A stretch of 64,000 nucleotides of DNA from an uncultured Planctomycetales bacterium (GTDB lineage: Bacteria > Planctomycetota > MHYJ01 > JACPRB01), in NCBI GenBank assembly GCA_964604905.1, contig CAZSCC010000370.1:3676-67675 (forward strand). The letters run 5' to 3'. Under the pieces are notes generated by a model. It was not told where the DNA came from. It searched no databases and saw only the letters and a program-made list of their open reading frames with translations. Made by a program: the position numbers and the translations under genes. Of this stretch, positions 23,256 through 64,000 are shown piece by piece (position 1 is the first letter of the stretch; every line of letters begins with the position of its first letter).

Positions 23256-24640
23256 AGACGATCTCCCGTCGGACCCTCCTGCGCGGCGCGGGCGCCGCGG
23301 TGGCGCTCCCGTTCCTCGAGCGGATGGCCCTCGGGGCAGGCGACCCCAAGCCCCCGGTCCGGATGATGTTCTACATCGTGGGGGGCGGGGCGTACCTGCC
23401 GTACTGGACGGTCGACGACGCCGCGCGCACGAAGGGGCTGGAACCGGGGAAGTCGGTCGAGCACCTGGGGCCGTCGGTCGAGCGGAACGAGCCGCTCGGG
23501 ACGCTCCCGCCGTCGTTGGAGCCCCTGGAGAAGGTCAGGAAGGACGTCCTGGTTCTCGGCGGCCTCACCCTCGCGAACGCCTACGGCTTCGAGGACGGCC
23601 ACTCGGCGGAAATCGGGGCGCTCCTTACGGGCGTCCCGTTCTCGCGCGAGAAGATCCACTGCGGCGTCTCGGTCGACCAGCTGGCCGCGCGCCACTTCGA
23701 GGGGAAGACCTATCTCGACGCGCTCGTGATCGGACTCAACGGGGGCCGGCCCGGCGGCGCGAAGGGCATCGGCCGGGTCTACGCCCAGCACTACTCCTGG
23801 CGCACCCCCACGACCCCGACGGGCGAGGAGCGCAACCCGAAGCTCGTCTTCGACCGCCTCTTCCGCGGCCGCAAGGGCGGGGATAAGGCGACGAGCGACG
23901 CCGACCGCCGGAGCGTCCTCGACTCGGTGCTCGATGAGGCCAAGCGCCTGCAGGCCGACCTCGGCGGATCCGATCGCCACAAGGTGGACGAGTACCTGGC
24001 CGCGGTGCGCGACGTGGAGAAGCGGATCGAGTTCGCGTCGAAGCGCGCGCCCGACCCCGCGGCGCCGGCGTTCGACGCGGGCGGGGCCGAGGCGGTCGAG
24101 AAGCGCATCCCCGCGGAGAAGGGGATCCCCGAGAGCTACGTCGAGTACGACCGCCTGATGATCGACCTGATCGCGCTCGCCTTCCAGACCGACACGACGC
24201 GCGTCGCGGTCTTCACGCACGGCGGCTACCGCAGCTACCCGGAGGTGGGCGTCAAGCGCGGCCACCACGACCTGCAGCACCACGAGGGGGACCTGGAGAA
24301 GCGCGAGGACCTCCGCAAGGTCGATCGCTTCAACGTCGGTCTCTTCTCCGCCGCGGTCGAGAAGTTCGGGTCGGTGAAGGAAGGCGACGGCTCGCTGCTC
24401 GACCGCTCGATGATGGTCTACACCTCCGGGATGTCCAACGGCAACCGCCACTCGAGGGAGAACCTGCCGGTGCTGCTGGCGGGCCGGGGGGGCGGGACGA
24501 TCACCACGGGCCGATACATCGATTGCGCCTGGCGGAAGATGACGCCGCTCTCCAACCTCTACGTCGAGATGCTGGGCCGCCTCGGGATCCCGACCGCGAA
24601 GTTCGGCGACTCGACGGGCGGGCTTCCGCAGCTCGCCTGA
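23252..24640 (+). CDS. DUF1552 protein with Tat-like signal
   Basis: 462 aa. 'SRRTLLRGAGAAVALPFLE', 'RGHHDLQHHEG' and 'LPVLLAGRGGG'. ATGA start/stop overlap with the preceding gene. Confidence 0.85.
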   Translation: MKTISRRTLLRGAGAAVALPFLERMALGAGDPKPPVRMMFYIVGGGAYLPYWTVDDAARTKGLEPGKSVEHLGPSVERNEPLGTLPPSLEPLEKVRKDVLVLGGLTLANAYGFEDGHSAEIGALLTGVPFSREKIHCGVSVDQLAARHFEGKTYLDALVIGLNGGRPGGAKGIGRVYAQHYSWRTPTTPTGEERNPKLVFDRLFRGRKGGDKATSDADRRSVLDSVLDEAKRLQADLGGSDRHKVDEYLAAVRDVEKRIEFASKRAPDPAAPAFDAGGAEAVEKRIPAEKGIPESYVEYDRLMIDLIALAFQTDTTRVAVFTHGGYRSYPEVGVKRGHHDLQHHEGDLEKREDLRKVDRFNVGLFSAAVEKFGSVKEGDGSLLDRSMMVYTSGMSNGNRHSRENLPVLLAGRGGGTITTGRYIDCAWRKMTPLSNLYVEMLGRLGIPTAKFGDSTGGLPQLA

Positions 24641-26767: not shown

Positions 26768-26791
26768 GATGACGGTACGCCCGGGGCCCGA

Positions 26792-27187
26792 TCAGCGCGT
26801 CATCGAGGGTGGAAATGGAAATCCGTATCGTACGAACAGGAACGTGAACAGTCCGATGCACCCTGCATTCCACACCAGGATCAGCCCTCTCAATCTTCTG
26901 AGAAGGCGACGCGCTTCGGTGTCCCCACGGATCCATGGGGGAGTCCTGAACGGCCATTCCATCATGGCCCTCAGAGTTGCCAGACCAGACTCGGCGGGCC
27001 TGTCGCCGGTCACCCGCCGCAGGAACCGTTGCGGCTGACCGAAGGTGACCCACTCCTCCCGGTGCTCCTCGTACATGAGGCGGATCAGGTGGTTGAACGT
27101 CGCGAAGAGCCAGAGGCCTACCGGAAGCAGGAGGAGGGCGCCGCCCACGAACCATGCAAAGACTTCAGGAAACCTACCGCCGAGCAT
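26792..27187 (-). CDS. hypothetical membrane protein (131 aa)
   Basis: ATG start with TM segments at both ends, in a visibly lower-GC patch. No family recognised. Confidence 0.4.
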   Translation of the reverse strand: MLGGRFPEVFAWFVGGALLLLPVGLWLFATFNHLIRLMYEEHREEWVTFGQPQRFLRRVTGDRPAESGLATLRAMMEWPFRTPPWIRGDTEARRLLRRLRGLILVWNAGCIGLFTFLFVRYGFPFPPSMTR

Positions 27188-27276
27188 GGGGTGTATGGAT
27201 AGCTTGCCCCGCGTGGAAAAGCAAAACTCATCTTGGAAAGCGGGACGTGAATCGTCTATCTTGGGCGGGAACGGTG

Positions 27277-30200
27277 ATGGGTCTCCAGCGGATCGTCCTG
27301 GCGCTTCTCGTCATGCTCGCGTCGATCGCGCCGCGCCAGGATCAGCACTCCGCCCCCGTCGACTTCGAGCGCGACATCCGGCCGATCCTCTCCGACACCT
27401 GTTATACCTGCCACGGGCCGGACCCTGCCAAGCGGAAGGCCGACCTCCGGCTGGACACCCGCGAGGGGGCGTTCGCGGACCTCGACGGGAAGAAGGCGAT
27501 CGTCCCCGGCCGCCCCGAACGGAGCGAACTCTTCCGCCGGCTCACGACGACTGACGCGGACGATCGGATGCCCCCCGCCAAGACGGGACGCGCGCTCTCC
27601 GCGAAACAAGTCGAGCTCGTCCGTCGGTGGATCGCCGAGGGCGCCGCGTGGAAGGCCCACTGGGCGTTCGTCGTGCCGAAGCGGCCGCCGCTGCCGGAGA
27701 CCCGGAACAAATCCTGGATCCGCAACCCTATCGACGCCTTCATCCTCTCGCGCCTGGAGCGGGAAGGGCTCGCGCCCTCTCCCGAGGCCGACCGGGCGAC
27801 CCTCCTCCGCCGGCTCTCGCTCGACCTTACCGGCCTGCCCCCCACGATCGCCGAGGTGGACGCGCCGGAAGCATACGAGCGGACGGTCGATCGCCTGCTC
27901 GCCTCCCCGCGCTACGGCGAGCGGATGGCGATCCGCTGGCTTGACGCGGCGCGCTATGCCGACACGAGCGGCTACCAGAACGACGGGCCGCGCGAGATGT
28001 GGCGCTGGCGCGACTGGGTGATCCGGGCGTTCAACGACAACCTGCCCTTCGACCGCTTCACCGTCGAGCAGCTGGCCGGAGACCTCCTACCCGACCCCAC
28101 GCTCGATCAGCGGATCGCCACCGGTTTCAACCGGAACCACCGGGGCAACTCGGAGGGCGGGATCATCCCCGAGGAGTACCAGGTCGAGTACGTCGTCGAC
28201 CGCGTCGACACGACCGCCACCGTGTGGCTCGGCCTCACCGTCGGCTGCGCCCGCTGCCACGACCACAAGTACGACCCGGTCGCGCAGGAGGAGTTCTACC
28301 GTCTCTTCGCGTACTTCAACACCCTCCCCGAGCATGGCCGGGCCGTCAAGATCGGCAACTCGCCGCCCTACATCAAGGCGCCCACTCCCGAGCAGGCGGC
28401 GGAAGAGCGCCGCCTCGCCGCGGAGTTGGCCGCCGCGGAAGCCCGCTTCGCGGGGATGCGAGAGGCGCTCGCGGCCGCGCAGACCGCGTGGGAGACGACG
28501 GCCGTTCCCCTTCCGTGGACCGTCACCGAAGGCCTCGTCGCGGGCTTCGCGATGGAGGGCAACGCCGGAGACGCGAAGGCCGTGGGAGGCGATCCCGAGT
28601 TCGGTCGCGGACGAGTCGGGGGCGCCGCCCGGTTCGATGGACGCCGCTGGCTGGAGGCGCCCGCCGCGGCGAAGTTCGGGTTCTTCGACAAGTTCTCGCT
28701 TGCGGCCTGGGTGAGTCCCGAAGGGGACGGCACGATCCTCTCCCGGATGGACTCCGCGGGCCGGGAGGAAGGCTACCACGTGCAGCTCGCGGGCGGGCGC
28801 GTCCAGGTCAACCTGGTGAAGCGCTGGCTCGACGACGCGATCCGGGTGGAGACGGTGCGGGCCCTCGAGCCGGGCCGCTGGCACCACGTGACCGTGACCT
28901 ACGACGGCACGCGACTCGCCTCGGGAGTCGCGATCTACGTCGACGGGAAGCCCGAACCCCTCAAGGTCCACCTCGACTTCCTCAACCAGTCGTTCGCCAC
29001 CGAACACCCGTTCCGCATCGGGGCGGGGAGCGCGCCGTTCCGCGGATCGATCGGCGACGTGCGGGTCTACGCGCGGCGGCTCTCTCCGGACGAGGCCGGC
29101 TCGATCGCGACGCCGGAGGCGGTCGAGGAGATCCTGCGCCTGAAGGAGCGGACCGCGCTCCAGGCGGTCAAGCTCGCGGCCTGCTTCCTCGACCGCCACG
29201 CCCCCGAGGCGATCCGGACGGCGCATCGCGAGCTCCTCGACCTCCGACGACGGAAGGAAGCCTTCGACGAAAGCATCCCGAGCGTGATGGTCATGGAGGA
29301 GATGAAGCCCCCGCGCGAGACGCGCATCCTGATCCGCGGGGAGTACAACCGACCGGGAAAGAAAGTCGCGACGGGCGTCCCGGCGGCGCTCCACCCGATG
29401 GCCGCGGGCGCTCCGTCCAACCGCCTGGGCCTGGCGCGGTGGATCGTGGACCCGGCCAACCCGCTCACCGCGCGGGTGATCGTCAACCAGTGGTGGCAGA
29501 TGTATTTCGGCTCCGGCCTCGTGCGCACGATCGAGGACTTCGGGGCGCAGGGCGAGCGGCCGAGCCACCCCGAGCTTCTCGACTGGCTGGCCGCGGAGCT
29601 CGTGGGGAGCGGCTGGGACGTGAAGCAGCTGCAGAGGACGATCGTGACGAGCGCCGCCTACCGGCAGTCGTCGCGCGTCACGCCGGCGCTCCTCGAGCGC
29701 GACCCGGACAACCGGCTCCTCGCGCGCGGCCCGCGCTTCCGCCTGCCGGCCGAGATGGTCCGCGATCAGGCGCTCCTGGCGAGCGGGCTCCTGGTCGAGC
29801 GCCTCGGCGGCCCGTCGGTCAAGCCCTACCAGCCCGAGGGGCTCTGGAGGGAGATCGCGAGCGACATGGAGTACGACCGGTCGAAGGGCGCCGGGCTCTA
29901 CCGCCGCAGCCTCTACACCTACTGGAAGCGGACGGTGGTCCCGCCCACGATGTCGACGTTCGACGCGGCGGGGCGCGAGGCCTGCACGGTGCGGCAGACG
30001 CGGACCAACACGCCCCTTCAGGCGCTGGCCCTCATGAACGACGTGACCTACGTCGAGGCGGCGCGCGTGCTGGCCCAGCAGATGACGGGCGACGCGCGAT
30101 TCCGCGGGGCCTTCCGGCGCGTCCTCGGCCGACCCCCCTCCGCGCGAGAGGAGGAGGTCCTGGTCCGCGCCTATGAGCGCAACCTCGAGGACTTCCGCCG

Positions 30201-30339
30201 CGATCCGGACGCGGCGCGGCGGCTGATCTCGGTCGGAGACTCGAAGCCCGACCCGTCGATCGATCCGGCCGAGCTGGCCGCGCGGACGATGGTCGCAAGC
30301 CTGATCCTGAATCTCGACGAAGCCGTGACCAAGGAGTGA
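27277..30339 (+). CDS. CxxCH + DUF1549 + LamG-like + DUF1553 protein
   Basis: ATG 27277 gives signal [19 protein letters not shown]. '[20 protein letters not shown]', '[10 protein letters not shown]', '[16 protein letters not shown]', '[11 protein letters not shown]'. A central concanavalin/LamG-like insert ('[15 protein letters not shown]...[10 protein letters not shown]...IYVDG'), then DUF1553-type C-terminus. Confidence 0.85.
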
Positions 30340-31736
30340 CGATGGATCCCCTGATCGGACGGCGTGGGTTCCTCCTGGGGAGCGGTCTGAGCCTGGGCGC
30401 GCTGGCGCTCGAGGCCTTCGCGCAGCAGGAGGGGCGGTCGCGCGCGCCCCATTTCGCGCCGAAGGCCCGCCGCGTGATCTACCTCTGCCAGTCGGGCGCG
30501 CCCTCGCAGATGGACCTCTTCGACTACAAGCCACAGCTCGAGAAGTTCCGCGCTCAGGACCTGCCCGACTCGGTGCGGAAGGGTCAGCGGCTGACGGGGA
30601 TGACGGCGACGCAGGATCGCTTCCCGATCGCGCCGTCGATCTTCCGCTTCGCGCGGCGCGGGGAGAGCGGCGCGTGGGTGAGCGACCTTCTGCCGGAGAC
30701 GGCGGCGATCGCGGACGACCTCTGCTTCGTGAAGTCGATGTTCACGGAGGCGATCAACCACGACCCGGCGATCACGTTCCTCCAGAGCGGCAGCCAACTC
30801 GCGGGCCGTCCCAGCATGGGAGCGTGGGTCTCCTACGGGCTTGGCCGGCTGAACGAGGACCTGCCGAGCTTCGTGGCGATGACGTCGGGGGAGGGGGACC
30901 AGCCGCTCTACGACCGCCTCTGGGGGAGCGGCTTCCTGCCGAGCGAGTACCAGGGGGTCAAGTTCGGGCGGACGGGCGACCCGGTGCTCTACCTGTCGGA
31001 CCCTCCCGGGATCGACCGGGCGATGCGGCGCCGGATGCTGGACGATCTGGCGGCGATGAACGAGCTCCGGCTGCGCGAGCAGGGGGACCCCGAGACGGCG
31101 GCCCGGATCGCGCAGTACGAGATGGCCTTCCGGATGCAGGCGTCGGTCCCCGAGCTGGTCGACGTCTCGCGCGAGCCCGAGTCGATCCGCGAGCTGTACG
31201 GCCCCGACTGCATGAAGCGCGGGACCTTCGCGGCGAACTGCCTGTTGGCGCGCCGCCTGGCGGAGCGGGGGGTGCGGTTCATCCAACTCTATCACCGCGG
31301 CTGGGACCAGCACACCAACCTGCCGCGAGACCTCCGGCGGCAGTGCAGGGACACGGACCGCCCGGCGGCGGCGCTGGTTCGGGACCTCAAGCAGCGGGGG
31401 ATGCTCGACGACACGCTGGTGATCTGGGGGGGCGAGTTCGGCCGCACGGTCTACTGCCAGGGGCGCCTCACGGAGGACGACTACGGCCGCGACCATCATC
31501 CGCGCTGCTTCACGGTCTGGATGGCGGGGGGCGGGGTCAAGCCGGGGCTCACCTGGGGCGAGACGGACGACCACTCCTACAACATCGTCCGGGACCCCGT
31601 CCACGTGCATGACCTGAACGCCACGGTCCTGCACTGCCTGGGCCTCGACCACACCCGGCTGACCTTCCAGTACCAGGGCCGCCACCACCGCCTGACCGAC
31701 GTGCACGGCCACGTGGTGAAGGGCCTGCTCGCGTAA
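30336..31736 (+). CDS. DUF1501 (sulfatase-like fold) protein
   Basis: 466 aa. '[18 protein letters not shown]', 'GRDHHPRCF' and '[14 protein letters not shown]'. GTGA start/stop overlap with the preceding gene. Its TAA stop (31734-31736) lies inside the palindromic element. Confidence 0.85.
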
Positions 31737-44656: not shown

Positions 44657-44998
44657 TCAGTCCGCCAGCACCCTGGTCGGGTCCGCCTTCGGAACGAGCT
44701 TCTGGCCGAGGCCGAGGCACGCCTTGCAGGGCACCGCGACCCGGCGGAAGGCGAGGCCGCGTCCCTCGCAGAGCGCGCACGGCGCCGCCGAACAGATGTC
44801 CTCGACGGCCGGCGGCTTCCGGAGCGGCTCGCACGTGGGACAGTCGATGAACCCGTTGGGGCAGGCCGAGCACTTCCGGGCGGGCTCGGTCCCCGCGCCC
44901 TTGCAGGTCGCGCAAAGGAGGCTTCCCCCGCCGCTCCCGCCCCCGCCCGACTTGCTCAGTCCGCCCCCCTGGCACGCGGTGCAGACGCCCCTGATCAC
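44657..44998 (-). CDS. Cys-rich protein with six CxxC(xGxG) DnaJ-type zinc-finger motifs; the true 5' end is probably ATG 45125 in another frame (frameshift)
   Basis: The track ORF starts at GTG 44998. Motifs: CTACQGGG, CATCKGAG, CSACPNG, CPTCEP, CALCEGRG, CKACLGLG. An SD + ATG at 45125 opens a coding-looking frame that is offset by one base relative to this one. Confidence 0.5.
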   Translation of the reverse strand: MIRGVCTACQGGGLSKSGGGGSGGGSLLCATCKGAGTEPARKCSACPNGFIDCPTCEPLRKPPAVEDICSAAPCALCEGRGLAFRRVAVPCKACLGLGQKLVPKADPTRVLAD

Positions 44999-45137
44999 CC
45001 CGCGGACGGGGAGGAACGGGCATGAGCGGGCTCACGGCGGCGGTCTTCCTCTTGGCGAGTCTCTCCGTTTCCGCCCGGCACGCGCCGCAGGAACGGCCGC
45101 GCCACAAGACCCCCTTCCGCGTCATCAACCTCCACGC

Positions 45138-45506
45138 CTAGACTTTCCCCTCTACAAAGGACTTGAGCCGTACGGCGTCATCCACGCCCTGGAGCGCACG
45201 CGCACCATCGGTGAGCAGGGGCTTTCGGAGCAGGTTGGGGATCTTCGCGAGGATGTCGAGGAGTTGCTCGTCGGGGAGCGTCTTTCCGGCGAGGTTCTGC
45301 TGGTACTCGGGGGAGTCCGTCCTGGGGGTCACCATTTCGCGGGCGCCTCCGGGCGTCCCTTTGGCGATCTGCCCCAACACCTCCCGGCTCGGCGGTTGGG
45401 TCAGGATGTCGAGCACGTCGACTTCGATCTTGTTCTGCGAAAGCCACGCCTTCGCGTTCTCGCAGGCGCCTCAACCCTTCTTGTAGTAAAGCGTCAGTCT
45501 GGCCAT
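45138..45506 (-). CDS. ArsC/Spx/YffB-family thiol oxidoreductase with in-frame TGA at the catalytic Cys position (candidate selenoprotein, U-G-A-C motif)
   Basis: ATG 45506 with GGAGGG 6 nt upstream. MARLTLYYKKG-[TGA 45473-45471]-GACENAKAWLSQNKIEVDVLDILTQPPSRE... is in frame with track ORF 45138..45416 (GTG). The full length parallels ArsC (IYHNPACGTSRN...ENPPSRDEL...INRPIV). Confidence 0.6.
45435..45465 (-). promoter_or_regulatory. SECIS-like mRNA hairpin downstream of the in-frame UGA
   Basis: The mRNA from +6 to +36 after UGA reads CUGCGAGA-ACGC-GAAG-GCGU-GGC-UUUCGCAG. It forms an 8-bp lower stem (one G-U), a 3-nt bulge, a 4-bp upper stem and a GAAG apical loop starting 18 nt after the UGA. 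Confidence 0.45.
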
Positions 45507-45525
45507 GTCCGACCCTCCATTCCAC

Positions 45526-45553
45526 ATTGTAGGCGGGACCGTCGCATCGGCAA
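45526..45553 (-). promoter_or_regulatory. sigma70-like promoter candidate for the ArsC-like gene
   Basis: Minus strand TTGCCG (45553-45548), 16-nt spacer, TACAAT (45531-45526), about 20 nt upstream of the ATG. Confidence 0.4.
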
Positions 45554-45570
45554 GCTATTGCCTCGCAGCC

Positions 45571-45737
45571 CTAGGGAGCGATCTCCTTGAGGAAGGTGAC
45601 AGACTCGCGGATCACGGAGTCCACGATCTGCATATGACCCTTGTCCGTGTAGTGCAGGAACTTGTGCGGAGCGCCAGCCTTCCGGAGGGTCTCTGCCATG
45701 TCCACCGCCTGCTTGATGGGAACCGACTTGTCGTCGT
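45571..45737 (-). pseudogene. 3' remnant of an alpha/beta-hydrolase (dienelactone-hydrolase / S9 peptidase-like) gene
   Basis: The minus frame reads ...SHDDKSVPIKQAVDMAETLRKAGAPHKFLHYTDKGHMQIVDSVIRESVTFLKEIAP* (stop 45573-45571), which holds the catalytic Asp/His region only. The upstream part is replaced by the 72-bp repeat. Confidence 0.5.
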
Positions 45738-45809
45738 GGGAGTAAGACAATCAAAAGGGTATCCGAGGAGGGAGGGAAAGGGAAGAGGAGGGGTGATGAA
45801 ACAGGATGG
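45738..45809 (+). repeat. 72-bp direct repeat, copy 1
   Basis: gggagtaagacaatcaaaagggtatccgagg[a]gggagggaaagggaagaggaggggtgatgaaacaggatgg. It is 71/72 identical to 47238-47309 and contains a G3-N1-G3-N3-G3-N7-G4 tract (45770-45793). The last bases supply the ATG of ORF 45806. Confidence 0.95.
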
Positions 45810-55883: not shown

Positions 55884-57185
55884 TTAGATCTCGGTCAGCC
55901 GCTCCTTGGAGTCTCCGAACGAGTCGAGACGGACGCCCATCTTGTCCATCATCGACAGGTAGAGCGAGCACATCTTCCGGTTGGGCTTGCCCAGGTAGTC
56001 GAGCACCCGGCCGCCGGCGATCTTGCCGCCGCCCCGGCCGACCAGCACCACGGGGAGCTGCGTGCAGTCGTGGCTTGCGCCGTGCAGCATGCTCGACAGG
56101 TAGAGGATCATCGTGTTGTCGAGCGCCGTCCGCTCGCCCTCCTGCACCTGCTCGAGCTTCGATGCGATGTAGGCCACCTGCTCGGTGAAGAACCGGTTCA
56201 CCTTCAGCCAGTCGGCGTTGTCGGTGTGCGAGAGCAGGTGGTGGATCATGTAGTCCACCCCCAGGTGGGGGAAGCGCTGCGAAGAGTGGTCGTTGTTCAG
56301 CTTGAGCGTGCAGATCCGGGTCGTGTCGGTCCGGAAGGCGAGGACCAGGATGTCGCACATCAGCCGCATGTGCTGGTCCAGGTCCTGGGGGACCCCGTCG
56401 GCTGGACGCGGGCGGTCGGGCTTCTCGAGGCCCGGCTTCCAGCCCTGGAGGCGTCCCTGCTTGCCCGCCTGCTGGATCCGCTGCTCCACCTCGCGCACGG
56501 AGGAGAGATACTCGTCAAGCTTGCCCTTGTCGGAGGCGCTCAGCTTGCCGCCCAGGCTCTTCGCGTCCTCGCGGATCTGGTCGAGCACGCTCGCGTCGCC
56601 GCGGTCCACGTCGTCCCGGAAGAGCTGGTCGAACGCCAGCGCCGGATAGAGCTCGAGGGGCGTCGGCGTCGTGGGCGAGCTCCACGAGATGTGCGAGCTG
56701 TAGATCATCGAGTAGCCCTTGTGGAGGGCCGAGATCGACGGCTCGCAGGCGAGCACGAGGCTCGGGACCTTCGTCGCCCCGGCCAGCCTCTGCGCGACGA
56801 GCTGGTCCATGCTCACGCCCGACCGGATCCCGCCGCCGCCCTCCAGGGTCGCGCCGGTCAGCAGGTCGCCCGTCATGGCGCTGTGGATGCCGCCCTTTCC
56901 CGACTGGGCGTTGTACAAGCCGCGGAGGAAGAGCAGCTTTTCCTTGAAGGGCGCGAGCGGCTCGAGGACCTTGCCGAGCTCCATCCCCTTGCCCTCGCCC
57001 TTCGCCCACCACTCCCTGCCGTGGAAGCCGTTGCCGGCGAAGAGGACCGCGAGGCGGACCGGCGGCTCGGCCGCCTTGTCGTCCCCCCACGCGCGGAGCG
57101 ACTCCATCCAGGGCAGCGCCATCGTGACGCCCATCCCCCGCAGCATCGTGCGCCGCGTCAGCCCGCTTTGTTTCGCTGCGTTCAT
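55884..57185 (-). CDS. DUF1552 protein with Tat-like signal
   Basis: 433 aa. 'TRRTMLRGMGVTMALPWME', 'HHLLSH' and 'LPVVLVGRGGG'. Confidence 0.85.
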   Translation of the reverse strand: MNAAKQSGLTRRTMLRGMGVTMALPWMESLRAWGDDKAAEPPVRLAVLFAGNGFHGREWWAKGEGKGMELGKVLEPLAPFKEKLLFLRGLYNAQSGKGGIHSAMTGDLLTGATLEGGGGIRSGVSMDQLVAQRLAGATKVPSLVLACEPSISALHKGYSMIYSSHISWSSPTTPTPLELYPALAFDQLFRDDVDRGDASVLDQIREDAKSLGGKLSASDKGKLDEYLSSVREVEQRIQQAGKQGRLQGWKPGLEKPDRPRPADGVPQDLDQHMRLMCDILVLAFRTDTTRICTLKLNNDHSSQRFPHLGVDYMIHHLLSHTDNADWLKVNRFFTEQVAYIASKLEQVQEGERTALDNTMILYLSSMLHGASHDCTQLPVVLVGRGGGKIAGGRVLDYLGKPNRKMCSLYLSMMDKMGVRLDSFGDSKERLTEI

Positions 57186-57192
57186 GAGTTCC

Positions 57193-60100
57193 TCACTCGC
57201 TTTTCGTGGCCTCGAGCCCCCGGTGCTCGCGGAACGGCCGGCTCAGGACGATCGCCTTGACGACGTCCGAGAGACGCCCTTCGCCCTTCTCGAGATCGCC
57301 GGCGACCCCGTCCAGGAACGCCTGGTCCGACAGCGTGACGCTCCTTCCCAGAGCATACCCCAGAAATTTCCGGAGGAACGTCTTCCGGAATTCCTTTTTC
57401 CGCCCGATCAGATAGCTGCGCAGGCCCTCGAGCCCCTCGAACTCCGTGCCGTCGCGGAGCGTCACGCGCGCGTCGATCGCCCTCCCGGCCGCGTCCTTGT
57501 CGCGCCGCCGCCCGATGGCGTCGTAGGCCTCGAGCGCGAAGCCGAAGGGGTCGATCCGGACGTGGCAGGTGGCGCACTCCGGGACGCGGGTGTGGCGCGC
57601 GGTCATCTCGCGGACGCTGAGGTCGGCGCCGGCCTCCTGCTCGGGGAGCTGGGGGACATTGGCCGGTGGCTTCGGCAGCTTCTCGCCGAGCATCGTCTCG
57701 ACCACCCAGTTGCCGCGGAGCACCGGGCTCGTGCGCGAGGCGCCCGACTCCTTCGCCAGGACGCTCCCGAGCGCGATCGCGCCGCCCCGGCCGTGCGCGC
57801 GGAGGCCGTCGACGCGGCGCCACTCCGGGCCCTTCACGCCGGGAATCCCGTAGTGCTTCGCGAGCGCCTCGTTCAGGAAGCTGTAGTCGGCGGTCAGGAT
57901 CTCGTCGACCGGCCGCCCCTCCCGGAAGAGGTGCTGGAAGAAGCGGATCGCCTCCTCGTAGAGCGCGGCGCGGAGGGAGGCGTCGAAGGAGGGGAAGAGC
58001 TTCTCGTTCTTCTCCCGGCTCTCCCGGAGATCGCGGACGTGGAGCCAGCGCGCGGCGAACTCCTCCGCCAGTCCGCGCGCCTTCGGGTCGTGGAGGAGGC
58101 GGTCGACCTGCGCCGTGAGCACCGCGGGATCGCGGAGGCGGCCCTCACCGGCGAGCCGCAGGAGCTCCGCGTCGGGCGTCGAGGCCCAGAGGAAGTAGCT
58201 CAGGCGCGTCGCGAGCTCGTGATCCGACACGGGACGAGACTCGGCGCCGGGCGGGGTCTCCTCGAGCCGGAAGAGGAAGGCCGGCGACGCCAGGCTGCGG
58301 ACGAACGCCGCGCGGACCGCTTCCTCGTGGGGCAGGTCCTGCCCGCGGAGCTTCGCGACCAGCTCGCGGAGTCCGCCCGCTTCGCGCGTGGTCAGCGGCC
58401 GCCGATACGCCCGCTCGGCGAGGCGGACGAGTGCGTCGACGTGGCCCGGCCAGGAGGCCTCGACCTCCTTCTCGAACGCCTCCGCCCGTCTGCGGAACGG
58501 CTCGCGCAGGCCCTCGAAGAACGCCAGCGCCTCCTTCGTGCCGTCCTGCGTGACGAACCCAATGAAGAGCGGCAGGTTCTTGTGCTCGGTCGTCGGCCAT
58601 TGGGAGATGAACCGCAGCTCCGCCCAGAGGCGGTCCAGCCGGCGCGACGCGCCGTCGTCCAGGAAGAGCCGGACGAGCGGTTCGTCGTCGCGGTGGTAGA
58701 GCTTGAGGCAGACGACCTCGTCGGTGGGGATCACCTGCGGGAAGCAGATGAAATTCGGGAAGAGGCGGCGGAATTCGTCGAAGCCGCGGACGAGGCGCTT
58801 CGACGCCTCGCCGGTGGCGACGCAGGGCGACTTCCCGTCCCACGGCCGCGTCGACGGGAGGGCGGAGAGCGTGGCCGAGAACTGGACGGCGCGGTCCGGG
58901 CCGTCGACCGTCCCCTCCACGACGAACGCGCGGTCGCGGAAGAGCGCCGCGGGGAGGCGGATCTCCGCCGTCCGGGCGGTCAGATCGCCGGCCTCGAGAC
59001 CGAACCGGCCGGCAAGCCTCGGGAGGCGGGCGAAGTCGAAGTCGCGGAAGAGGGGGCCGTCGACCGTCACCAGCGCGTCGTAGACGGCGCGGTCGGGATG
59101 CTTCTCGTCGCGCGGGCGCGGGCCGGTCAGGAGCGCCTGGACTTTCTTCGCCAGGGCCTCGTCGGGCGCAATCCGCCACTGGCCCAGGAGCGAGCCGGCG
59201 GGGATGGCCACCCCCGCGGCGGCGCCGTCCTTGCGCGTCGGCCCGTGCACGAAGCGCCAGGCGCCGTGCGGGTTGGACTTCAGGATCGTGTCGGCGACGT
59301 CGGAGGCGAGGTTCCACGAACGCTTCTCGCCGGCCGTCTCGCGGACCGTGACGTTCACCTCGGTGAGGTCGCAGACGTGGCTGCCGTCGCGCGCGTCGAT
59401 CGCGACGACGAGGGCATCTCCCTTCGCGACCGTCACCTCCCGCGCCGGTGCCGACGCATCGCCGCCGATGTTGACGACCCCCTGCGAGAGGCGGGCGGCG
59501 CGGTCGCCGCGGCGGAACTCCACCCAGTACGCGACGCCGTTCCCGCAGCCGCCGTGGGCGTGGGAGAAGACGGCCTCGAGCCGCACGCGGCCGTCGACCG
59601 GGCTGCCCCAGGCGATCGCGACGAAGCGGTCGGGGAGCGGGTGGACGACGATCCGGTGGGGCGACGCGCGGCCCGGGATGCGCTCTTCCTTGTCGGACGC
59701 GTTCGAGAGGACGACCGGCAGGTCGCCCGTCTTCGACCTCCATCCCTGGATCGCCGGGGTCTTCGCGGCGCCCGGCGCGGGCGTGTCGAGGAGGTCGAGG
59801 GGCACGGCGGGGGCGAGCGTCCCGGGCGCGCCCGGCTCGGCGAGCGGCTGGAGGCCGAGGAGGCCCGTCCACCGCTTGAGCCATTCGGCGTCCAGGCCGG
59901 CGGCCCGGGCGGGATCGCGGGCGGCCTCGAGGTACTTCGCGGTCTCGGCGAACGCGGCCTTGAGGTCGACTTCGTACTTCGGCCCGTAGGCGGCGTAGTC
60001 CTTGAGGAGCAACGGCACGCCCTTGCCGCCTTCGAATCTCGGACGGAGCCACGTCACCGGGCCGTCCGAGGCGGGGAGGTCGAGCGCCGCCAGGTGGAGC

Positions 60101-61155
60101 ACGACCTCGTCCTGGCCGGGCGCGGGCTTGAGCTCGACGCGGATCGACTGCGAGGGGACGAACGAGGGATCGTTCGCCTCCGCCCGCAGCTCCTTGCCCA
60201 TGCCGTAGCTGCCGACCTTGTGGAGCTTCCAGAGCGACTTCTGCCACGCGGCGACGTCGGCCACGAGGCCGTCGACCTCCTTCTCCGTCGCGCCGCGCCA
60301 CCGGGCGCGGAGGAGGTCGAGCGGGAAGGAGGACGCCGGATCGGTCAGGGCGGCCCAGAGGGCGCGGAAGTACTTCGCATTGATCTTCTCGCGCGCGGCG
60401 ACGGCGTCGGGGTCGCTCTTCCCCTCGAGGAGGGCGGCGCGGTGGCGGATCGCGGCGAGGAGCTGCGGGCGGAGCGGCAGCTGGCCGTCGGCGGAATGCT
60501 CCTTGTAGAAGGCGCGGAGGGAGGCGACCGCCTCGTTGGTCCAGTCGCGCCGCGTCTTCGAGGGGGAGAAGCGGAAGCCGTCGGGCAGGAGCACCAGATG
60601 GTCTCCGATCTCCTTGGCCGCGTTGAGGTATTTTCCGAGGAGCGCGGGGGACATGACGAGGGCGTCCCCGACGTTCGCGAAGCCCTCGCCGGCCACGCCG
60701 TCGAGAGGGAATTCGCGCGACGGGGCGAGGTCGACGCCGGTGAGGTCGCGCACGCTGTTGTCGTACTCGGCGTTGCCGAGGCGGCGGACGAGGACGCGGC
60801 CGGGATCGCCGGCGCGGGCGCGGGCCTCGGCGTCAAGCATCGCGCGGGTCCAGGCGACGAGGACCTTGCGGTCGTCGGCCGGCAGCGGCGGGCTCTTCTT
60901 GGGGGGCATCTCGCCGGTCTCGAGCTGCTCGAGGAGGTGCGGCCAGGGCCGGAGGTCCTTCCGGACCGCGTCGAGGGTGGCGAATCGCTCGAGGTCGAGC
61001 TCGCCTTTCTTGGCTTTCGTCGAATGGCATTCGAGGCAGGTCTTCGCCATGAGGGGGCGGATGCGCCGCGCGTACTCGGTCGCGAGGTCGGGCGTTTCCT
61101 GCCGCGGCGCGGCGCCCGCGAGGAGGAGGACGGCGAGGGAGAGGAGGTGTTTCAC
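57193..61155 (-). CDS. large DUF1592/DUF1595/DUF1587/DUF1588/DUF1585-type protein with N-terminal CxxCH domain
   Basis: 1320 aa, GTG start. 'CLECHSTKAKKGELDLE', 'VRRLGNAEYDNSVRDLTG', 'FAARWLHVRDL' and 'VPECATCHVRIDPFGFALEAYDAIGRRR'. Confidence 0.85.
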   Translation of the reverse strand: MKHLLSLAVLLLAGAAPRQETPDLATEYARRIRPLMAKTCLECHSTKAKKGELDLERFATLDAVRKDLRPWPHLLEQLETGEMPPKKSPPLPADDRKVLVAWTRAMLDAEARARAGDPGRVLVRRLGNAEYDNSVRDLTGVDLAPSREFPLDGVAGEGFANVGDALVMSPALLGKYLNAAKEIGDHLVLLPDGFRFSPSKTRRDWTNEAVASLRAFYKEHSADGQLPLRPQLLAAIRHRAALLEGKSDPDAVAAREKINAKYFRALWAALTDPASSFPLDLLRARWRGATEKEVDGLVADVAAWQKSLWKLHKVGSYGMGKELRAEANDPSFVPSQSIRVELKPAPGQDEVVLHLAALDLPASDGPVTWLRPRFEGGKGVPLLLKDYAAYGPKYEVDLKAAFAETAKYLEAARDPARAAGLDAEWLKRWTGLLGLQPLAEPGAPGTLAPAVPLDLLDTPAPGAAKTPAIQGWRSKTGDLPVVLSNASDKEERIPGRASPHRIVVHPLPDRFVAIAWGSPVDGRVRLEAVFSHAHGGCGNGVAYWVEFRRGDRAARLSQGVVNIGGDASAPAREVTVAKGDALVVAIDARDGSHVCDLTEVNVTVRETAGEKRSWNLASDVADTILKSNPHGAWRFVHGPTRKDGAAAGVAIPAGSLLGQWRIAPDEALAKKVQALLTGPRPRDEKHPDRAVYDALVTVDGPLFRDFDFARLPRLAGRFGLEAGDLTARTAEIRLPAALFRDRAFVVEGTVDGPDRAVQFSATLSALPSTRPWDGKSPCVATGEASKRLVRGFDEFRRLFPNFICFPQVIPTDEVVCLKLYHRDDEPLVRLFLDDGASRRLDRLWAELRFISQWPTTEHKNLPLFIGFVTQDGTKEALAFFEGLREPFRRRAEAFEKEVEASWPGHVDALVRLAERAYRRPLTTREAGGLRELVAKLRGQDLPHEEAVRAAFVRSLASPAFLFRLEETPPGAESRPVSDHELATRLSYFLWASTPDAELLRLAGEGRLRDPAVLTAQVDRLLHDPKARGLAEEFAARWLHVRDLRESREKNEKLFPSFDASLRAALYEEAIRFFQHLFREGRPVDEILTADYSFLNEALAKHYGIPGVKGPEWRRVDGLRAHGRGGAIALGSVLAKESGASRTSPVLRGNWVVETMLGEKLPKPPANVPQLPEQEAGADLSVREMTARHTRVPECATCHVRIDPFGFALEAYDAIGRRRDKDAAGRAIDARVTLRDGTEFEGLEGLRSYLIGRKKEFRKTFLRKFLGYALGRSVTLSDQAFLDGVAGDLEKGEGRLSDVVKAIVLSRPFREHRGLEATKSE

Positions 61156-61838
61156 GTGCGCTTCTCCGCGGGATCCATGAGGCCGGGCAGGAGGTCTTCC
61201 CAGCCCCCGCAGTGCCGCTCCATCATGCGGGCGGCCTCCTCGGGACGGCCGCGCTTCAGGACTTCGATGAACTCCCGATGCGACCGGAAGGTGGCCTCGC
61301 GGACGTCGTGCATCCGGTCTTCGCGCCGCCGATGGAGCCGGGCGAGCCAGAGCTCCATCTGCGAGCGCAGTTCGGCCCAGAGCCGGGCGAGCCGCCGGTG
61401 GCGCGCGATGACGACGATCTCGTCGTGGAAGGCTGTGTCAAGGGAGCTCAACTCGGTCAGGTCCTTGGCGTCGTGGGTGGCGGCGTAGATGGCTTCGAGG
61501 CGCTGAAGGTCGTCCGGCGTCAGCTTCTTCGCCGCCAGCCGGGCGGCCATGGACTGGAGGGAGGCGCGCAGGGTCAGGATTTCGAGGAGGTCGTCGGGGG
61601 TGAAGGCGCGGACGCAGGCGCGGCCCTTGGAATCGAATTCGACAAGGCCTTCGCGGTCGAGCTCGACCAGCGCCTCACGGACGGGGACACGGCTGACCCC
61701 CAGTTTGGCGGCGGTGGCCGACTCGGGGAGGGGGGTGCCCTCTGCGAGTTCGCCGCTGAGGATGGCTCGGCGGAGGCGGTTGAGAGTCTCCTTGGCGAGG
61801 GTGCTTCGGGGGATCACGCCCAGCGCAAGCTCGGCCAT
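61152..61838 (-). CDS. GntR-family transcriptional regulator, FadR subfamily (FCD ligand domain)
   Basis: 228 aa. wHTH 'LPESATAAKLGVSRVPVREALVELDREGLV', then a helical FCD-like domain with His residues. GTGA overlap with the downstream DUF1592 gene. Confidence 0.85.
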   Translation of the reverse strand: MAELALGVIPRSTLAKETLNRLRRAILSGELAEGTPLPESATAAKLGVSRVPVREALVELDREGLVEFDSKGRACVRAFTPDDLLEILTLRASLQSMAARLAAKKLTPDDLQRLEAIYAATHDAKDLTELSSLDTAFHDEIVVIARHRRLARLWAELRSQMELWLARLHRRREDRMHDVREATFRSHREFIEVLKRGRPEEAARMMERHCGGWEDLLPGLMDPAEKRT

Positions 61839-61907: not shown

Positions 61908-62327
61908 TCAATCGTCGATATGTCGTTCGCGAAGGCGGTCGGCGTGACGGCGTTTGGCCTCGATCCGCCGTTCCTTCGACGCGCGGGTGGGCCGCGTGCG
62001 GCGGCGGACTTTGGGACGGAAGAGGGCGGCGCGGAGCAGGTCGGCGATCTTGGCCGCGCAGTCCTCGCGGTTCCGGGCCTGGTCGCGGGTCTCCTGGCTC
62101 ATGACGAGGAGGTGGCCCTCGGCATCCAGGCGCGACTTGAGGAACTGGCGGACGCGGAAGAGGTCGTCTCCCACGAAGCCGACGACGCGGTCGAGGTCGA
62201 TCCGCATCTGGATCTTGGTGGCGAGTTTGTTGACGTTCTGTCCTCCCGGGCCTGAGGCGCGGACCGCCTTCGTTTCGACGGCCGCTTCCGGCACGAGGAC
62301 GCGGTCGTTGACGGGGATGTCGGCCAT
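61908..62327 (-). CDS. arfB: peptidyl-tRNA hydrolase ArfB (alternative ribosome-rescue factor B)
   Basis: ATG 62327 lies within track ORF 61908..62429. 139 aa with the 'SGPGGQNVNK' GGQ motif and a Lys/Arg-rich C-terminal tail. Confidence 0.85.
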   Translation of the reverse strand: MADIPVNDRVLVPEAAVETKAVRASGPGGQNVNKLATKIQMRIDLDRVVGFVGDDLFRVRQFLKSRLDAEGHLLVMSQETRDQARNREDCAAKIADLLRAALFRPKVRRRTRPTRASKERRIEAKRRHADRLRERHIDD

Positions 62328-62476
62328 GGGTCGACTATACCACAGGACCCGGAGCCTTCGGACCCCCGGTTTATTTGCAGCATTCTGAAAGTTTCCGTAC
62401 CCGCCGCGGCTCCTATAGGAGTAGGACAAATCGAACCTCCAGGGCGGCGGCGGGGGTTGTAAGGGATAGAGAACCC

Positions 62477-64000
62477 ATGAACGATTCCAAGGGCGGCCCG
62501 TCGAAGCGCCCCCCTCCCGTCCCCTTCGGCAAGTACAAGCTCCTCCGCGAGATCGGACGGGGCGGCAAGGGAGTCGTCCACGAGGCGCTCGACACCGTCC
62601 TGAACCGGAAGGTCGCGCTCAAGAGGATCCAGGCCGGATCGGAGGACGACGCCGCGGGGATCGCGGCCGAGGGACGACGTTTCCTCATCGAGGCGCGGAT
62701 CGGCGCCAGCCTCCCCCGCCATCCCCACATCGTCGGGGTCTACGAGGCGGGGGAGATCGACGGGCAGCCCTACCTGGCGATGGAGCTCGTCCCGGACCAG
62801 TCGCTGGTCCGGTGGAGAAAGACCCCCGCCGCCACGTTCGAGGCGCAGGCGGCGCTCCTTCGCGACGTCGCGCTCGCGCTCGACCACGCCCATAGCCACG
62901 GCGTCGTGCACCGGGACGTCAAGCCCCAGAACATCCTGGTCGATGCTCAGGGCCAGCCCCGGCTGACCGACTTCGGCCTCGCCCGGCTCGAGGGCCAGAA
63001 GGAGGACCTCTCGCTCTCGGAGCCCGGCCGGATCTGGGGGACGCCCGCCTACATCAGCCCCGAGCACGCGTGCGGGAACACGGAGGTCGACGCGCGGGCA
63101 GACGTCTACTCGCTGGGCGTCCTCCTCTACGAGGCGATCGCGGGACGGCCGCCCTTCAAGGGCGAGACCTCGGCCCAGGTGCTGAAGAAAGTCGCGAGCG
63201 ATCCGCCCCCGCCCATCGCCTCCCTCATCGACGCCTCGCTCCTCACGCCCCTCCAGCGTGCCCTCGAGCCGCTCTGCATGAAGGCGCTCTCCAAGGACCC
63301 CGATGACCGGCCCGCGAGCGCCGCCGAGTTCGCCGACGGGATCGACCGCTGCCTCGACGCGAGGAGATCGCGGAAGAAGCTCGCGATCGCGTCGGCGGCC
63401 GTCGCCGCGCTCCTCCTGGTCATCGTCTCGTCCCTCTTCGTGTTCGGCGGATCGAAGGGTCCGACCCCGCAGGAACTCGAGGCGCAGAAGGCGGACGAGA
63501 AGAGGCGCCACGACCAGTTGGCGCGCGAGAAGCAGAAAGCCGTCGACGAGACCCGGCGCGACGCCGAGGAGCGCGCGCGGGAAAAAGAGGAGGAGTTCAA
63601 GCGCCGGCTGGAGGTCCAGCGCCGCGCGAGCGACGAGGAAGCGGTCCGCCTCAAGATGGATCAGATCAAGGCCGAGGAGCGGGCGCGCGCGGCCGAGGCC
63701 GCCGTCGCAAAGAAGCCGGAGCCGAAGCCCGCGGAGCCCCTCGTCCCGCTCCAGACGCCGGCGCCCGCGGTCGCGCCTCCCGCGCCGGCCGTGAAGCCCG
63801 ACCCGGCGGCTCCGGTCGCGCCGAAAACCGCCCCGTCCGCTCCGCCGAGCGGGGAGCCCTCGACTCTCGCGGACGGGACGCTCCACTGGGAGGCCGAGGA
63901 CTTCAGCGGCGGCGACAAGCCGGTCGAGGGCGTCGACTTCCACGACGCGACTCCCGGGAACAGCGGCAAGGTCTATCGTTCGTGCGACGTCGATCTGGGC
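62477..64000 (+). CDS. Ser/Thr protein kinase with TM, charged coiled/Pro-rich linker and extracytoplasmic CBM-like start; 3' end runs off the window
   Basis: My own translation, with no stop in the window. MNDSKGG..., 'GRGGKGVVHEA', 'HRDVKPQNILV', 'DFGLAR', 'GTPAYISPEH', a TM 'LAIASAAVAALLLVIVSSLFVF', then '...GTLHWEAEDFSGGDKPVEGVDFHD'. Confidence 0.85.
   Translation, partial: MNDSKGGPSKRPPPVPFGKYKLLREIGRGGKGVVHEALDTVLNRKVALKRIQAGSEDDAAGIAAEGRRFLIEARIGASLPRHPHIVGVYEAGEIDGQPYLAMELVPDQSLVRWRKTPAATFEAQAALLRDVALALDHAHSHGVVHRDVKPQNILVDAQGQPRLTDFGLARLEGQKEDLSLSEPGRIWGTPAYISPEHACGNTEVDARADVYSLGVLLYEAIAGRPPFKGETSAQVLKKVASDPPPPIASLIDASLLTPLQRALEPLCMKALSKDPDDRPASAAEFADGIDRCLDARRSRKKLAIASAAVAALLLVIVSSLFVFGGSKGPTPQELEAQKADEKRRHDQLAREKQKAVDETRRDAEERAREKEEEFKRRLEVQRRASDEEAVRLKMDQIKAEERARAAEAAVAKKPEPKPAEPLVPLQTPAPAVAPPAPAVKPDPAAPVAPKTAPSAPPSGEPSTLADGTLHWEAEDFSGGDKPVEGVDFHDATPGNSGKVYRSCDVDLG

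What the first reader, a model, noticed from the sequence alone, without database searches (positions are those of the whole stretch)
45138..45553. In-frame TGA at the catalytic-Cys codon of an ArsC/Spx-family gene: candidate selenoprotein with U-G-A-C redox motif, SECIS-like hairpin and its own promoter/SD
Reading the minus strand from ATG 45506 gives MARLTLYYKKG-TGA-GACENAKAWLSQNKIEVDVLDILTQPPSREVLGQI... GGAGGG lies 6 nt upstream of the ATG, and TTGCCG-N16-TACAAT lies further up. This reading is in frame with the track ORF 45138..45416, which only begins at an internal GTG.

The 122-codon product parallels ArsC along its whole length, as I remember the R773 protein. ITIYHNPACGTSRN matches LTLYYKKGUGACEN, ENPPSRDEL matches TQPPSREVL, and INRPIV matches LRKPLL. 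The TGA (45473-45471) falls exactly on the catalytic N-terminal Cys column.

Six nt after the UGA the mRNA can form an 8-bp stem, a bulge, a 4-bp stem and a GAAG loop. The apical loop starts 18 nt after the UGA, which is the kind of geometry described for bacterial SECIS elements.

Sec/Cys pairing at a redox-active site is the classical signature of a selenoprotein. Standard callers would annotate a 5'-truncated protein without its active site.
Basis: partly seen in the sequence, partly recalled or inferred. Interest (0 to 1): 0.8.

Follow-up and report, generated by a model that had tools for sequence, protein, structure and literature searches.

The report
Mis-annotated ArsC/Spx-like selenoprotein gene
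This is a small redox protein gene in a planctomycete whose active-site cysteine codon is replaced by a UGA read as selenocysteine, so gene callers cut off its active site; the gene is real, but it belongs to a kind of selenoprotein described since 2006-2008.

Summary
On the minus strand, ATG 45506 to TAG 45138 is a 122-codon ArsC/Spx-fold gene with an in-frame TGA at codon 12 (45473-45471), giving a U-G-A-C motif.

- All 20 distinct homologues fetched (17 close orthologues, 3 distant; source GC 36-69%) keep this TGA. Coding constraint is visible on both sides of it.
- In 100 of 111 distant homologues that cover the column, the residue is Cys. It aligns to Spx Cys10 and ArsC Cys12.
- 49 of 50 database homologues are 5'-truncated calls. 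The fiftieth reads the TGA as Trp.
- In many orthologous loci a tRNA-Sec gene lies 60-115 nt downstream, and a DsrE-like gene with its own conserved TGA lies upstream.
The conserved SECIS candidate is a nested 8-bp hairpin with a GUG loop (45455-45437). It has compensatory changes, and its Leu codon is always CUU, a rare codon here.

The window holds no sel genes and no tRNA-Sec, so the Sec machinery of this genome is untested.

ArsC-like UxxC selenoproteins are already published, so this is a new member of a known kind. It falls below the cut-off of the existing NCBIfam ArsC selenoprotein model.

The parts
45138..45506 (-). Full coding sequence of the ArsC/Spx-like selenoprotein: 122 codons plus the TAG stop, with Sec at codon 12.
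   Evidence: Translation. Pfam ArsC with U replaced by C. Spx and ArsC alignments. Orthologues span residues 1-122 across the TGA.
45471..45473 (-). In-frame TGA, the Sec codon 12. It is the first position of the U-G-A-C redox motif.
   Evidence: TGA in 17 of 17 distinct orthologous sequences and in 3 of 3 distant homologues. It aligns to Cys in 100 of 111 homologues.
45462..45464 (-). TGC, Cys15, the second residue of the UxxC motif.
   Evidence: The codon is invariant as TGC in all 17 sequences. It aligns to Spx Cys13.
45437..45455 (-). Conserved SECIS candidate: an 8-bp hairpin GCGAAGGC-GUG-GCUUUCGC. The GUG loop is at 45447-45445, and it starts 23 nt after the UGA.
   Evidence: RNAalifold consensus. 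95% of cells paired; compensatory CG>UA in two sequences and GC>AU in one. On its own it folds at -9.8 kcal/mol, z = -3.0. GCGUGGCUUU is invariant in 17 sequences from sources with GC 36-69%. Leu22 is always CUU, although CUU is 4.3% of Leu codons in the window.
45435..45465 (-). It overlaps the conserved hairpin and cannot form at the same time.
   Evidence: It is the MFE fold in the window and its close relatives. It breaks in L022 and L023 (+1.3 and -6.2 kcal/mol) and in L026-L028. 88% of cells paired, with no covariation beyond shuffles.
45513..45518 (-). Shine-Dalgarno GGAGGG, 6 nt upstream of the ATG.
   Evidence: GGAGG is also present before the ATG in the stand-alone orthologues L002, L008 and L022-L025.
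45526..45553 (-). Sigma-70-like promoter candidate TTGCCG-N16-TACAAT.
   Evidence: 9 of 12 matches; 1 site found against 0.1 expected. TACAAT is also present upstream in L024 and L025. This is a consensus match only.
45138..45416 (-). The truncated 92-aa ORF that gene callers report. It starts at an internal GTG and lacks strand beta-1, helix alpha-1 and the active site.
   Evidence: The identical 92-aa product is in an NCBI record (P0002).

Best explanation
The gene encodes a 122-residue cytoplasmic protein of the ArsC/Spx family, which has a thioredoxin-like fold. Codon 12 is UGA and is decoded as selenocysteine.

Inferred decoding mechanism: an 8-bp hairpin with a GUG apical loop starts 15 nt after the UGA. 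It is encoded by the conserved A-K-A-W-L-S codons. It would recruit SelB carrying Sec-tRNA(Sec) to the ribosome paused at the UGA.

The product carries a U12-G-A-C15 motif at the N-terminal cap of helix alpha-1. This is the position of the CXXC switch in Spx and of catalytic Cys12 in ArsC. The protein would cycle between the selenol/thiol state and a selenenylsulfide.

The most likely role is a small thiol/selenol oxidoreductase or redox switch. It is closer to the Spx/MgsR/YffB-type members than to a true arsenate reductase.

What is shown: the reading frame, the family and fold, the Sec/Cys column, the conservation of the TGA and of the hairpin, and tRNA-Sec next to the orthologues.

What is inferred: actual Sec insertion in this organism, the SelB contact with the GUG loop, the selenenylsulfide chemistry, and the substrate.
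For: - Frame and TGA.
- Family: Pfam ArsC 36.5 bits against a cut-off of 24. The best NCBIfam hit is Spx/MgsR TIGR01617 at 55.5 bits.
- PDB sequence hits: Spx at E = 9e-12 over residues 4-110, with U12/C15 aligned to C10/C13.
- Structure: AF2 model with pLDDT 84.7, strand 4-8, helix 13-25. The top Foldseek hits are Spx, TM 0.79-0.84.
- Database homologues: 49 of 50 close ones are 5'-truncated at varying internal starts. One is full-length with W at the TGA.
- TGA conservation: present in all fetched orthologues, with synonymous variation upstream of it, and in 3 distant homologues.
- Cys column: Cys in 100 of 111 distant homologues, 76 of them CxxC.
- Hairpin: covariation, invariance and rare-codon use.
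- TGA is an ordinary stop for many high-GC3 genes in the window.
- tRNA-Sec lies 60-115 nt downstream of the orthologue in L003-L007 and L010-L017. It is called by ARAGORN and by Rfam RF01852 at 71 bits against a cut-off of 47.
- A neighbouring DsrE-like gene has a conserved TGA and a similar GUG-loop hairpin.
- Planctomycetes such as Gemmata and Isosphaera are reported to have complete Sec gene sets (PMC4807772).
Against: - No selA, selB, selD or tRNA-Sec lies in the 64-kb window. The rest of this genome could not be searched.
- The window locus lacks the DsrE-like and tRNA-Sec neighbours seen in other relatives.
- Hairpin covariation rests on only three compensatory cells among 17 related sequences. 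The shuffle controls are suggestive, not conclusive.
- No Rfam family matched the hairpin.
- No expression or protein data are available.
Confidence: 0.85

Rival explanations
1. The UGA is a true stop. Codons 1-11 form a short upstream ORF or leader. The functional protein is the 92-aa product that starts at the internal GTG 45416.
For: This is what gene callers report. No Sec machinery is visible in the window.
Against: - Codons 13-30 lie between the UGA and the GTG. They are conserved as protein and align to the alpha-1 helix of Spx and ArsC, including the second Cys.
- The internal start is not conserved. Called starts fall at several different codons and are either M or V.
- The truncated product would lack strand beta-1, helix alpha-1 and the active site of the fold.
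- The ATG and the SD are conserved upstream of the UGA.
Confidence: 0.05
2. The UGA is read through without selenocysteine. This could be near-cognate Trp or Cys insertion, or a reassigned TGA, for example because this genome has lost the Sec machinery.
For: One JGI record translates the orthologue with W at this codon (P0001). The Sec genes of this genome are unverified.
Against: - TGA ends many high-GC3 genes in the window, so it is not reassigned.
- Homologues have Cys at this column, not Trp or Gly.
- A conserved hairpin with a G/U-containing apical loop follows the UGA at the usual bacterial SECIS distance.
- tRNA-Sec is adjacent in related organisms.
Confidence: 0.06
3. The gene is a pseudogene, or the TGA is a sequencing or assembly error for TGC or TGT.
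For: A single-base change from TGC or TGT would give TGA.
Against: The same TGA is present in 20 distinct sequences from many independent assemblies. Purifying selection is visible on both sides of it.
Confidence: 0.02

Closest known systems
'Arsenate reductase 2' (cd03032, Spx-type ArsC; UxxC) selenoprotein family of the GOS metagenome. It is listed as 'Arsenate reductase-like protein, COG1393, UxxC' in the 2022 review (PMC2398784, PMC9312934).
   Same: It has the ArsC/Spx fold, Sec at the first position of a UxxC motif that replaces CxxC, many Cys homologues, and a SECIS directly downstream of the UGA.
   Different: The published family was defined on marine reads. Sequence-level membership could not be tested here. 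The present clade comes from soil and freshwater Planctomycetota, and no Cys orthologue above about 40% identity was found for it.
'ArsC-like' selenoproteins of Desulfotalea psychrophila and Desulfuromonas acetoxidans (PMC1794560), and NCBIfam NF041106 'ArsC family (seleno)protein'.
   Same: These are also Sec-containing members of the ArsC superfamily.
   Different: The window protein scores 16.4 bits against NF041106, whose cut-off is 85. Only residues 6-31 match. It is therefore a different subfamily, and one that the NCBI pipeline model does not capture.
Spx of Bacillus subtilis, a CXXC redox-switch regulator that binds the RNA polymerase alpha-CTD.
   Same: It is the best sequence match (E = 9e-12, about 28-30% identity) and the best structural match (TM 0.79-0.84). 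U12/C15 align to C10/C13. Residues that align to Spx G52, R60 and R91/R92 are conserved as G54, R62 and R94/K95 (the Spx numbering is from my own knowledge).
   Different: Sec replaces Cys10. The protein is below the TIGR01617 cut-off (55.5 against 75.05). Spx is a Firmicutes regulator, and nothing here shows RNA polymerase binding.
Glutaredoxin-coupled arsenate reductase ArsC of plasmid R773.
   Same: The fold is the same, and the catalytic Cys12 column equals U12.
   Different: TIGR00014 scores 34.5 against a cut-off of 106. In the pairwise alignment ArsC R60 faces T60 and R94 faces K95, and the alignment ends before R107. The ArsC sequence was recalled from memory. No ars genes are nearby.

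Membership tests
Bacterial selenoprotein gene (UGA decoded as Sec) | An in-frame UGA with protein-coding conservation on both sides. | tested here: met
Bacterial selenoprotein gene (UGA decoded as Sec) | Homologues carry Cys at the UGA column (a Sec/Cys pair). | tested here: met
   100 of 111 homologues have Cys there. The column aligns to Spx Cys10 and ArsC Cys12.
Bacterial selenoprotein gene (UGA decoded as Sec) | A SECIS hairpin directly downstream of the UGA with G in the apical loop. PMC2398784 (Fig. 7 legend) states that the apical-loop guanosines are conserved in bacterial SECIS elements. The 16-37 nt UGA-to-loop range of the bSECISearch model is from my own knowledge. | tested here: met
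   The conserved element is an 8-bp hairpin whose GUG loop starts 23 nt after the UGA. 95% of cells are paired, with 3 compensatory cells, z = -3.0 alone, and invariant synonymous sites. Covariation support is modest. No dedicated SECIS predictor was available.
Bacterial selenoprotein gene (UGA decoded as Sec) | selA, selB, selC (tRNA-Sec) and selD are present in the same genome. | not testable with these tools
In related organisms tRNA-Sec lies next to the orthologue.
Bacterial selenoprotein gene (UGA decoded as Sec) | Selenium is incorporated into the polypeptide. | not testable with these tools
   This needs 75Se labelling or mass spectrometry.
ArsC superfamily (Pfam PF03960) | Profile score above the gathering cut-off, and the ArsC/Spx fold. 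| tested here: met
   36.5 bits against a cut-off of 24. The AF2 model matches Spx and ArsC-family structures with TM 0.7-0.84.
Spx/MgsR regulators (NCBIfam TIGR01617, NF002459) | Score above the curated cut-off. | tested here: not met
   55.5 against 75.05 for TIGR01617, and 53.8 against 123 for NF002459.
Spx/MgsR regulators (NCBIfam TIGR01617, NF002459) | An N-terminal CXXC switch, and binding to the RNA polymerase alpha-CTD. | tested here: inconclusive
   UxxC is at the CXXC position. RNA polymerase binding cannot be tested with these tools.
Glutaredoxin-dependent arsenate reductase (TIGR00014, R773 ArsC) | Equivalog score, and the catalytic Arg60/Arg94/Arg107 triad together with Cys12. | tested here: not met
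   34.5 bits against a cut-off of 106. The Cys12 column is occupied by Sec. R60 faces T60, R94 faces K95, and the R107 region is not aligned (the reference sequence is from memory).
NCBIfam NF041106 ArsC family (seleno)protein | Score above the cut-off of 85 bits. | tested here: not met
   16.4 bits, with only residues 6-31 matching.
GOS 'Arsenate reductase 2' UxxC selenoproteins | A UxxC motif in a cd03032-type ArsC domain, and sequence clustering with the published set. | tested here: inconclusive
   The motif and the Spx-type domain agree.

The most novel reading that the evidence does not exclude
This clade may not be a generic oxidoreductase. It may be part of a selC-linked selenium-handling or selenium-sensing module.

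In many relatives the gene sits between a YedF-type DsrE-like selenoprotein (UGMC motif) and the tRNA-Sec gene. A methyltransferase gene and a candidate two-Sec thioredoxin-fold gene lie close by. Both small proteins share a U-G-x-C motif.

Given that Spx is its nearest relative, the protein could be a Sec-based redox switch or regulator that reports or relays selenium or redox status.
Probability: 0.12. Interest if true: 0.6.

Novelty: new member of a known kind. Interest (0 to 1): 0.35.

Why it matters
The practical point is annotation. This clade is called as a truncated protein of about 90 aa without its active site in 49 of 50 database entries, including the NCBI record of this contig. 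In the fiftieth entry the TGA is translated as Trp. The existing NCBIfam ArsC selenoprotein model does not catch it, so a dedicated model would correct the annotation.

The biological points are these:
- It adds a Planctomycetota clade that appears to be all-Sec to the ArsC/Spx-like selenoproteins.
- It gives a compact, well-conserved SECIS with a GUG loop, embedded in the AKAWLS codons, that is conserved across source DNA of very different GC content.
- In relatives it shows a tight DsrE-like(U) - ArsC/Spx-like(U) - tRNA-Sec arrangement, which may point to a function.

It does not change what is known about Sec decoding.

Tried and rejected
- The first genome-contig scan, with the single protein as query, found nothing. 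The scan with the alignment found only one MAG.
- The look-up of encoding contigs had no record for P0002 or P0025. The assembly of the window therefore could not be identified, and its Sec genes could not be searched.
- The listing of cluster members gave no accessions or names.
- Rfam found no SECIS or other RNA family at the locus.
- A scan of the window for other in-frame TGAs with Cys-type motifs and coding signal on both sides found only this gene.
- tblastn for the DsrE-like partner found no copy in the window.
- Pfam scans of about 40 window ORFs found no sel genes and no ars genes.
- The supplements of PMC4807772 do not mention an ArsC-type selenoprotein. Peng et al. 2016 mentions neither Planctomycetes nor ArsC.
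P0001, which has W at the Sec column, was used instead.
- Rejected: TGA reassignment, because TGA terminates many genes in the window.
- Rejected: pseudogene or sequencing error, because the TGA is conserved in 20 distinct sequences.
- Rejected: assignment as a true arsenate reductase.

Full report
**Observation**

The minus strand from ATG 45506 to TAG 45138 reads MARLTLYYKKG-TGA-GACENAKAWLSQNKIEVDVLDILTQPPSREVLGQIAKG...GKV. That is 122 codons, with an in-frame TGA at codon 12 (45473-45471). The mechanical ORF list holds only the 92-aa ORF 45138..45416, which starts at an internal GTG in the same frame.

GGAGGG (45518-45513) lies 6 nt before the ATG. TTGCCG-N16-TACAAT (45553-45526) is the only sigma-70-like site in 44900-45800, against 0.1 expected from shuffles. 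It is not better than shuffles of this 69% GC sequence (z = -0.23).

**Family and fold**

With U replaced by C, the protein passes Pfam ArsC PF03960 (36.5 bits, cut-off 24). In NCBIfam the hits are:
- Spx/MgsR TIGR01617: 55.5 bits, cut-off 75.05. This is the best hit.
- Arsenate reductase TIGR00014: 34.5 bits, cut-off 106.
- 'ArsC family (seleno)protein' NF041106: 16.4 bits, cut-off 85.

Against PDB sequences the best matches are Spx proteins (E = 9e-12 to 8e-10 over residues 4-110). U12 falls on Cys10 and C15 on Cys13 of the CXXC switch. R773 ArsC follows at E about 3e-7.

An AlphaFold2 model of the orthologue P0001 has mean pLDDT 84.7. It places the Sec column between strand 4-8 and helix 13-25. 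Its best Foldseek matches are Spx (TM 0.79-0.84), followed by ArsC-family proteins.

A pairwise alignment to R773 ArsC puts U12 on Cys12. ArsC R60 faces T60, R94 faces K95, and the alignment stops before R107.

The protein is therefore an ArsC-superfamily member of the Spx/YffB type, not a demonstrable arsenate reductase.

**Is the TGA conserved?**

A search of 5.8 billion proteins returned 50 close homologues. Forty-nine are 86-108 aa and begin at different internal M or V codons. The single full-length one (P0001, JGI) has W at the Sec column, so the TGA was read as Trp.

I fetched DNA for 17 distinct orthologous sequences, including a Planctomycetota MAG and soil and freshwater metagenomes. 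All have ATG, ten codons, TGA, GG-N, [A/T], TGC.

Upstream of the TGA the ATG is invariant. Codons 6 (Leu, one Phe), 7 (Tyr) and 11 (Gly) vary almost only synonymously, so the 5' part is translated.

An exhaustive HMMER search of 1.8 billion representatives found no full-length relative above 39% identity.
- Of 111 hits that cover the column, 100 have Cys: 76 CxxC and 20 CxxS.
- Three have W.
- A further 32 hits are truncated.
- Three of the truncated ones were checked at the DNA level (L026-L028; locus GC 36-60%). All carry TGA at the same codon.

TGA is a normal stop for many high-GC3 genes of the window, so the codon is not reassigned.

**SECIS**

Two overlapping hairpins cannot form at the same time.

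It is the MFE fold in the window and its close relatives.
  - It breaks in L022 and L023 (+1.3 and -6.2 kcal/mol), and it is also not maintained in L026-L028.
  - Across 17 sequences it has 88% of cells paired and no covariation beyond shuffles.
- Hairpin B is GCGAAGGC-GUG-GCUUUCGC (nt 19-37; 45455-45437).
  - It is the RNAalifold consensus.
  - 95% of cells are paired.
  - C-G changes to U-A in two sequences, G-C to A-U in one, and G-U alternates with A-U in eight.
  - On its own it folds at -9.8 kcal/mol, z = -3.0.

The ten bases GCGUGGCUUU are identical in all 17 sequences, from sources of 36% to 69% GC. Leu22 is always CUU, a codon used for only 4.3% of leucines in the window's genes. This points to selection on the RNA.

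The GUG loop starts 23 nt after the UGA. [quoted passage not shown] 7 legend).

The neighbouring DsrE-like selenoprotein gene of related loci has a similar hairpin. Its GUG loop is at nt 23-25.

**Sec machinery**

The window holds no tRNA. Pfam scans of about 40 ORFs found no selA, selB or selD. They show typical planctomycete families: PSCyt, PSD, DUF1501 and DUF1552. No other candidate Sec codon is in the window. The rest of the genome was out of reach.

In the orthologous loci L003-L007 and L010-L017, a tRNA-Sec gene (anticodon TCA) lies 60-115 nt downstream of the gene. ARAGORN calls it in each of these loci, and Rfam RF01852 confirms it in the two scanned, L003 and L012 (about 71 bits against a cut-off of 47).

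Immediately upstream in those loci lies a 120-codon DsrE-like gene (Pfam E = 4e-11). It has its own conserved TGA, in the motif VFV-U-GMC.

Published work reports complete Sec gene sets in Gemmata, Isosphaera and two other planctomycetes (PMC4807772).

**Interpretation**

The best explanation, at confidence 0.85, is a true selenoprotein. SelB would decode UGA 45473 with the help of hairpin B. The product would be an ArsC/Spx-fold protein with a U-G-A-C centre that cycles through a selenenylsulfide.

The function beyond 'small cytoplasmic redox protein or switch' is inferred only. The window gives no operon partners. The gene has its own SD and a promoter-like site, and its neighbours are unrelated.

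The rival readings each fail on the conservation data:
- a uORF followed by a truncated protein;
- read-through without Sec;
- a pseudogene or sequencing error.

**Comparison with what is known**

ArsC-like selenoproteins were described in Deltaproteobacteria in 2006 (PMC1794560). The GOS study lists 'Arsenate reductase 2, cd03032, UxxC' with 42 Sec sequences and 238 Cys homologues (PMC2398784). It is repeated in the 2022 review (PMC9312934).

This is therefore a new member, probably a new subfamily, of a known kind. What is new here:
- the Planctomycetota clade, for which no Cys orthologue was found;
- the conserved GUG-loop SECIS;
- the fact that current models miss the clade;
- the DsrE-like(U) / ArsC-like(U) / tRNA-Sec arrangement in relatives.

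**Verdict**

The finding is correct and worth an annotation fix. It is of moderate-to-low surprise for a specialist (interest 0.35).

Noticed in passing
L003 5331-5426; L012 1980-2075; also L004-L007, L010, L011, L013-L017: A tRNA-Sec gene (anticodon TCA) lies 60-115 nt downstream of the orthologous ArsC/Spx-like selenoprotein gene in many related contigs. It is supported by ARAGORN in all of them and by Rfam RF01852 at about 71 bits in L003 and L012. There is no such neighbour in the window.
   Followed up: partly
L003 4531-4893 (same arrangement in L001, L004-L007, L010-L021): A 120-codon DsrE-like gene (Pfam PF02635) lies directly upstream of the orthologue. It has a conserved in-frame TGA in the motif NVPVFV-U-GMCGRARG. 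Gene callers split it into ORFs of 79 aa and 39 aa. Its UGA is followed by a hairpin with a GUG loop at nt 23-25. The U-G-x-C motif resembles the CGXC motif of the selenium-linked YedF DsrE domain (PMC5322559).
   Followed up: partly
L001 2114-3145: A two-domain thioredoxin-fold ORF (AhpC-TSA / ResA-like) has two in-frame TGAs. One is at GFFSRY-U-DFSVEEM, the active-site position (L001 2837). The other is at YAYG-U-PAYIIDAG, just before what looks like the cis-Pro motif typical of thioredoxin-fold proteins (L001 3032). It is a candidate two-Sec protein in the same gene cluster, and each TGA is followed by a stable hairpin. Only this one locus was examined.
   Followed up: partly
L015 and L021 (contig Ga0310810_10000123, ranges 25521-28883 and 9976-13338): Two paralogous copies of the ArsC/Spx-like Sec gene lie about 15 kb apart on one contig. 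In the first 122 residues they differ at 15 positions. Both have the TGA. The DsrE-like gene is complete upstream of L015, but upstream of L021 only its C-terminal 37 residues match.
   Followed up: no
protein P0001; also P0072, P0093, P0127: These database proteins carry Trp exactly at the Sec column (WxxC). For P0001 the DNA of loci encoding the same protein apart from that residue (L003, L015) shows TGA there, so the TGA was translated as Trp. The other three were not checked at the DNA level.
   Followed up: partly
window 44657-44998 (-): A Cys-rich 113-aa ORF lies 140 nt downstream of the selenoprotein gene. It has repeated C-x-x-C(-x-G-x-G) motifs of the DnaJ zinc-finger type and no Pfam hit. 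It is not conserved next to the orthologue in L002.
   Followed up: no
window 45571-45750 (-): A 59-aa ORF lies directly upstream of the promoter-like site. To my eye it looks like the C-terminal end of an alpha/beta hydrolase, but it has no Pfam hit. It may be a gene remnant. In L024 a peptidase S9 / DLH-type gene lies next to the orthologue.
   Followed up: no
window 4790-8131 (+): A stop-to-stop ORF of 1113 codons has a DDE_Tnp_1_4 transposase domain at residues 834-1071.
   Followed up: no
window 61908-62618 (-): A 236-aa ORF with an RF-1 domain (a protein of the peptide-chain-release-factor type) lies next to a GntR/FCD regulator.
   Followed up: no
window 11413-15250, 20916-24640, 27097-31736, 55884-61437: There are four planctomycete-specific gene pairs, two of PSCyt/PSD with DUF1501 and two of PSD with DUF1552 (HXXSHH). 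Together with the 69% GC they place the window in Planctomycetota.
   Followed up: no
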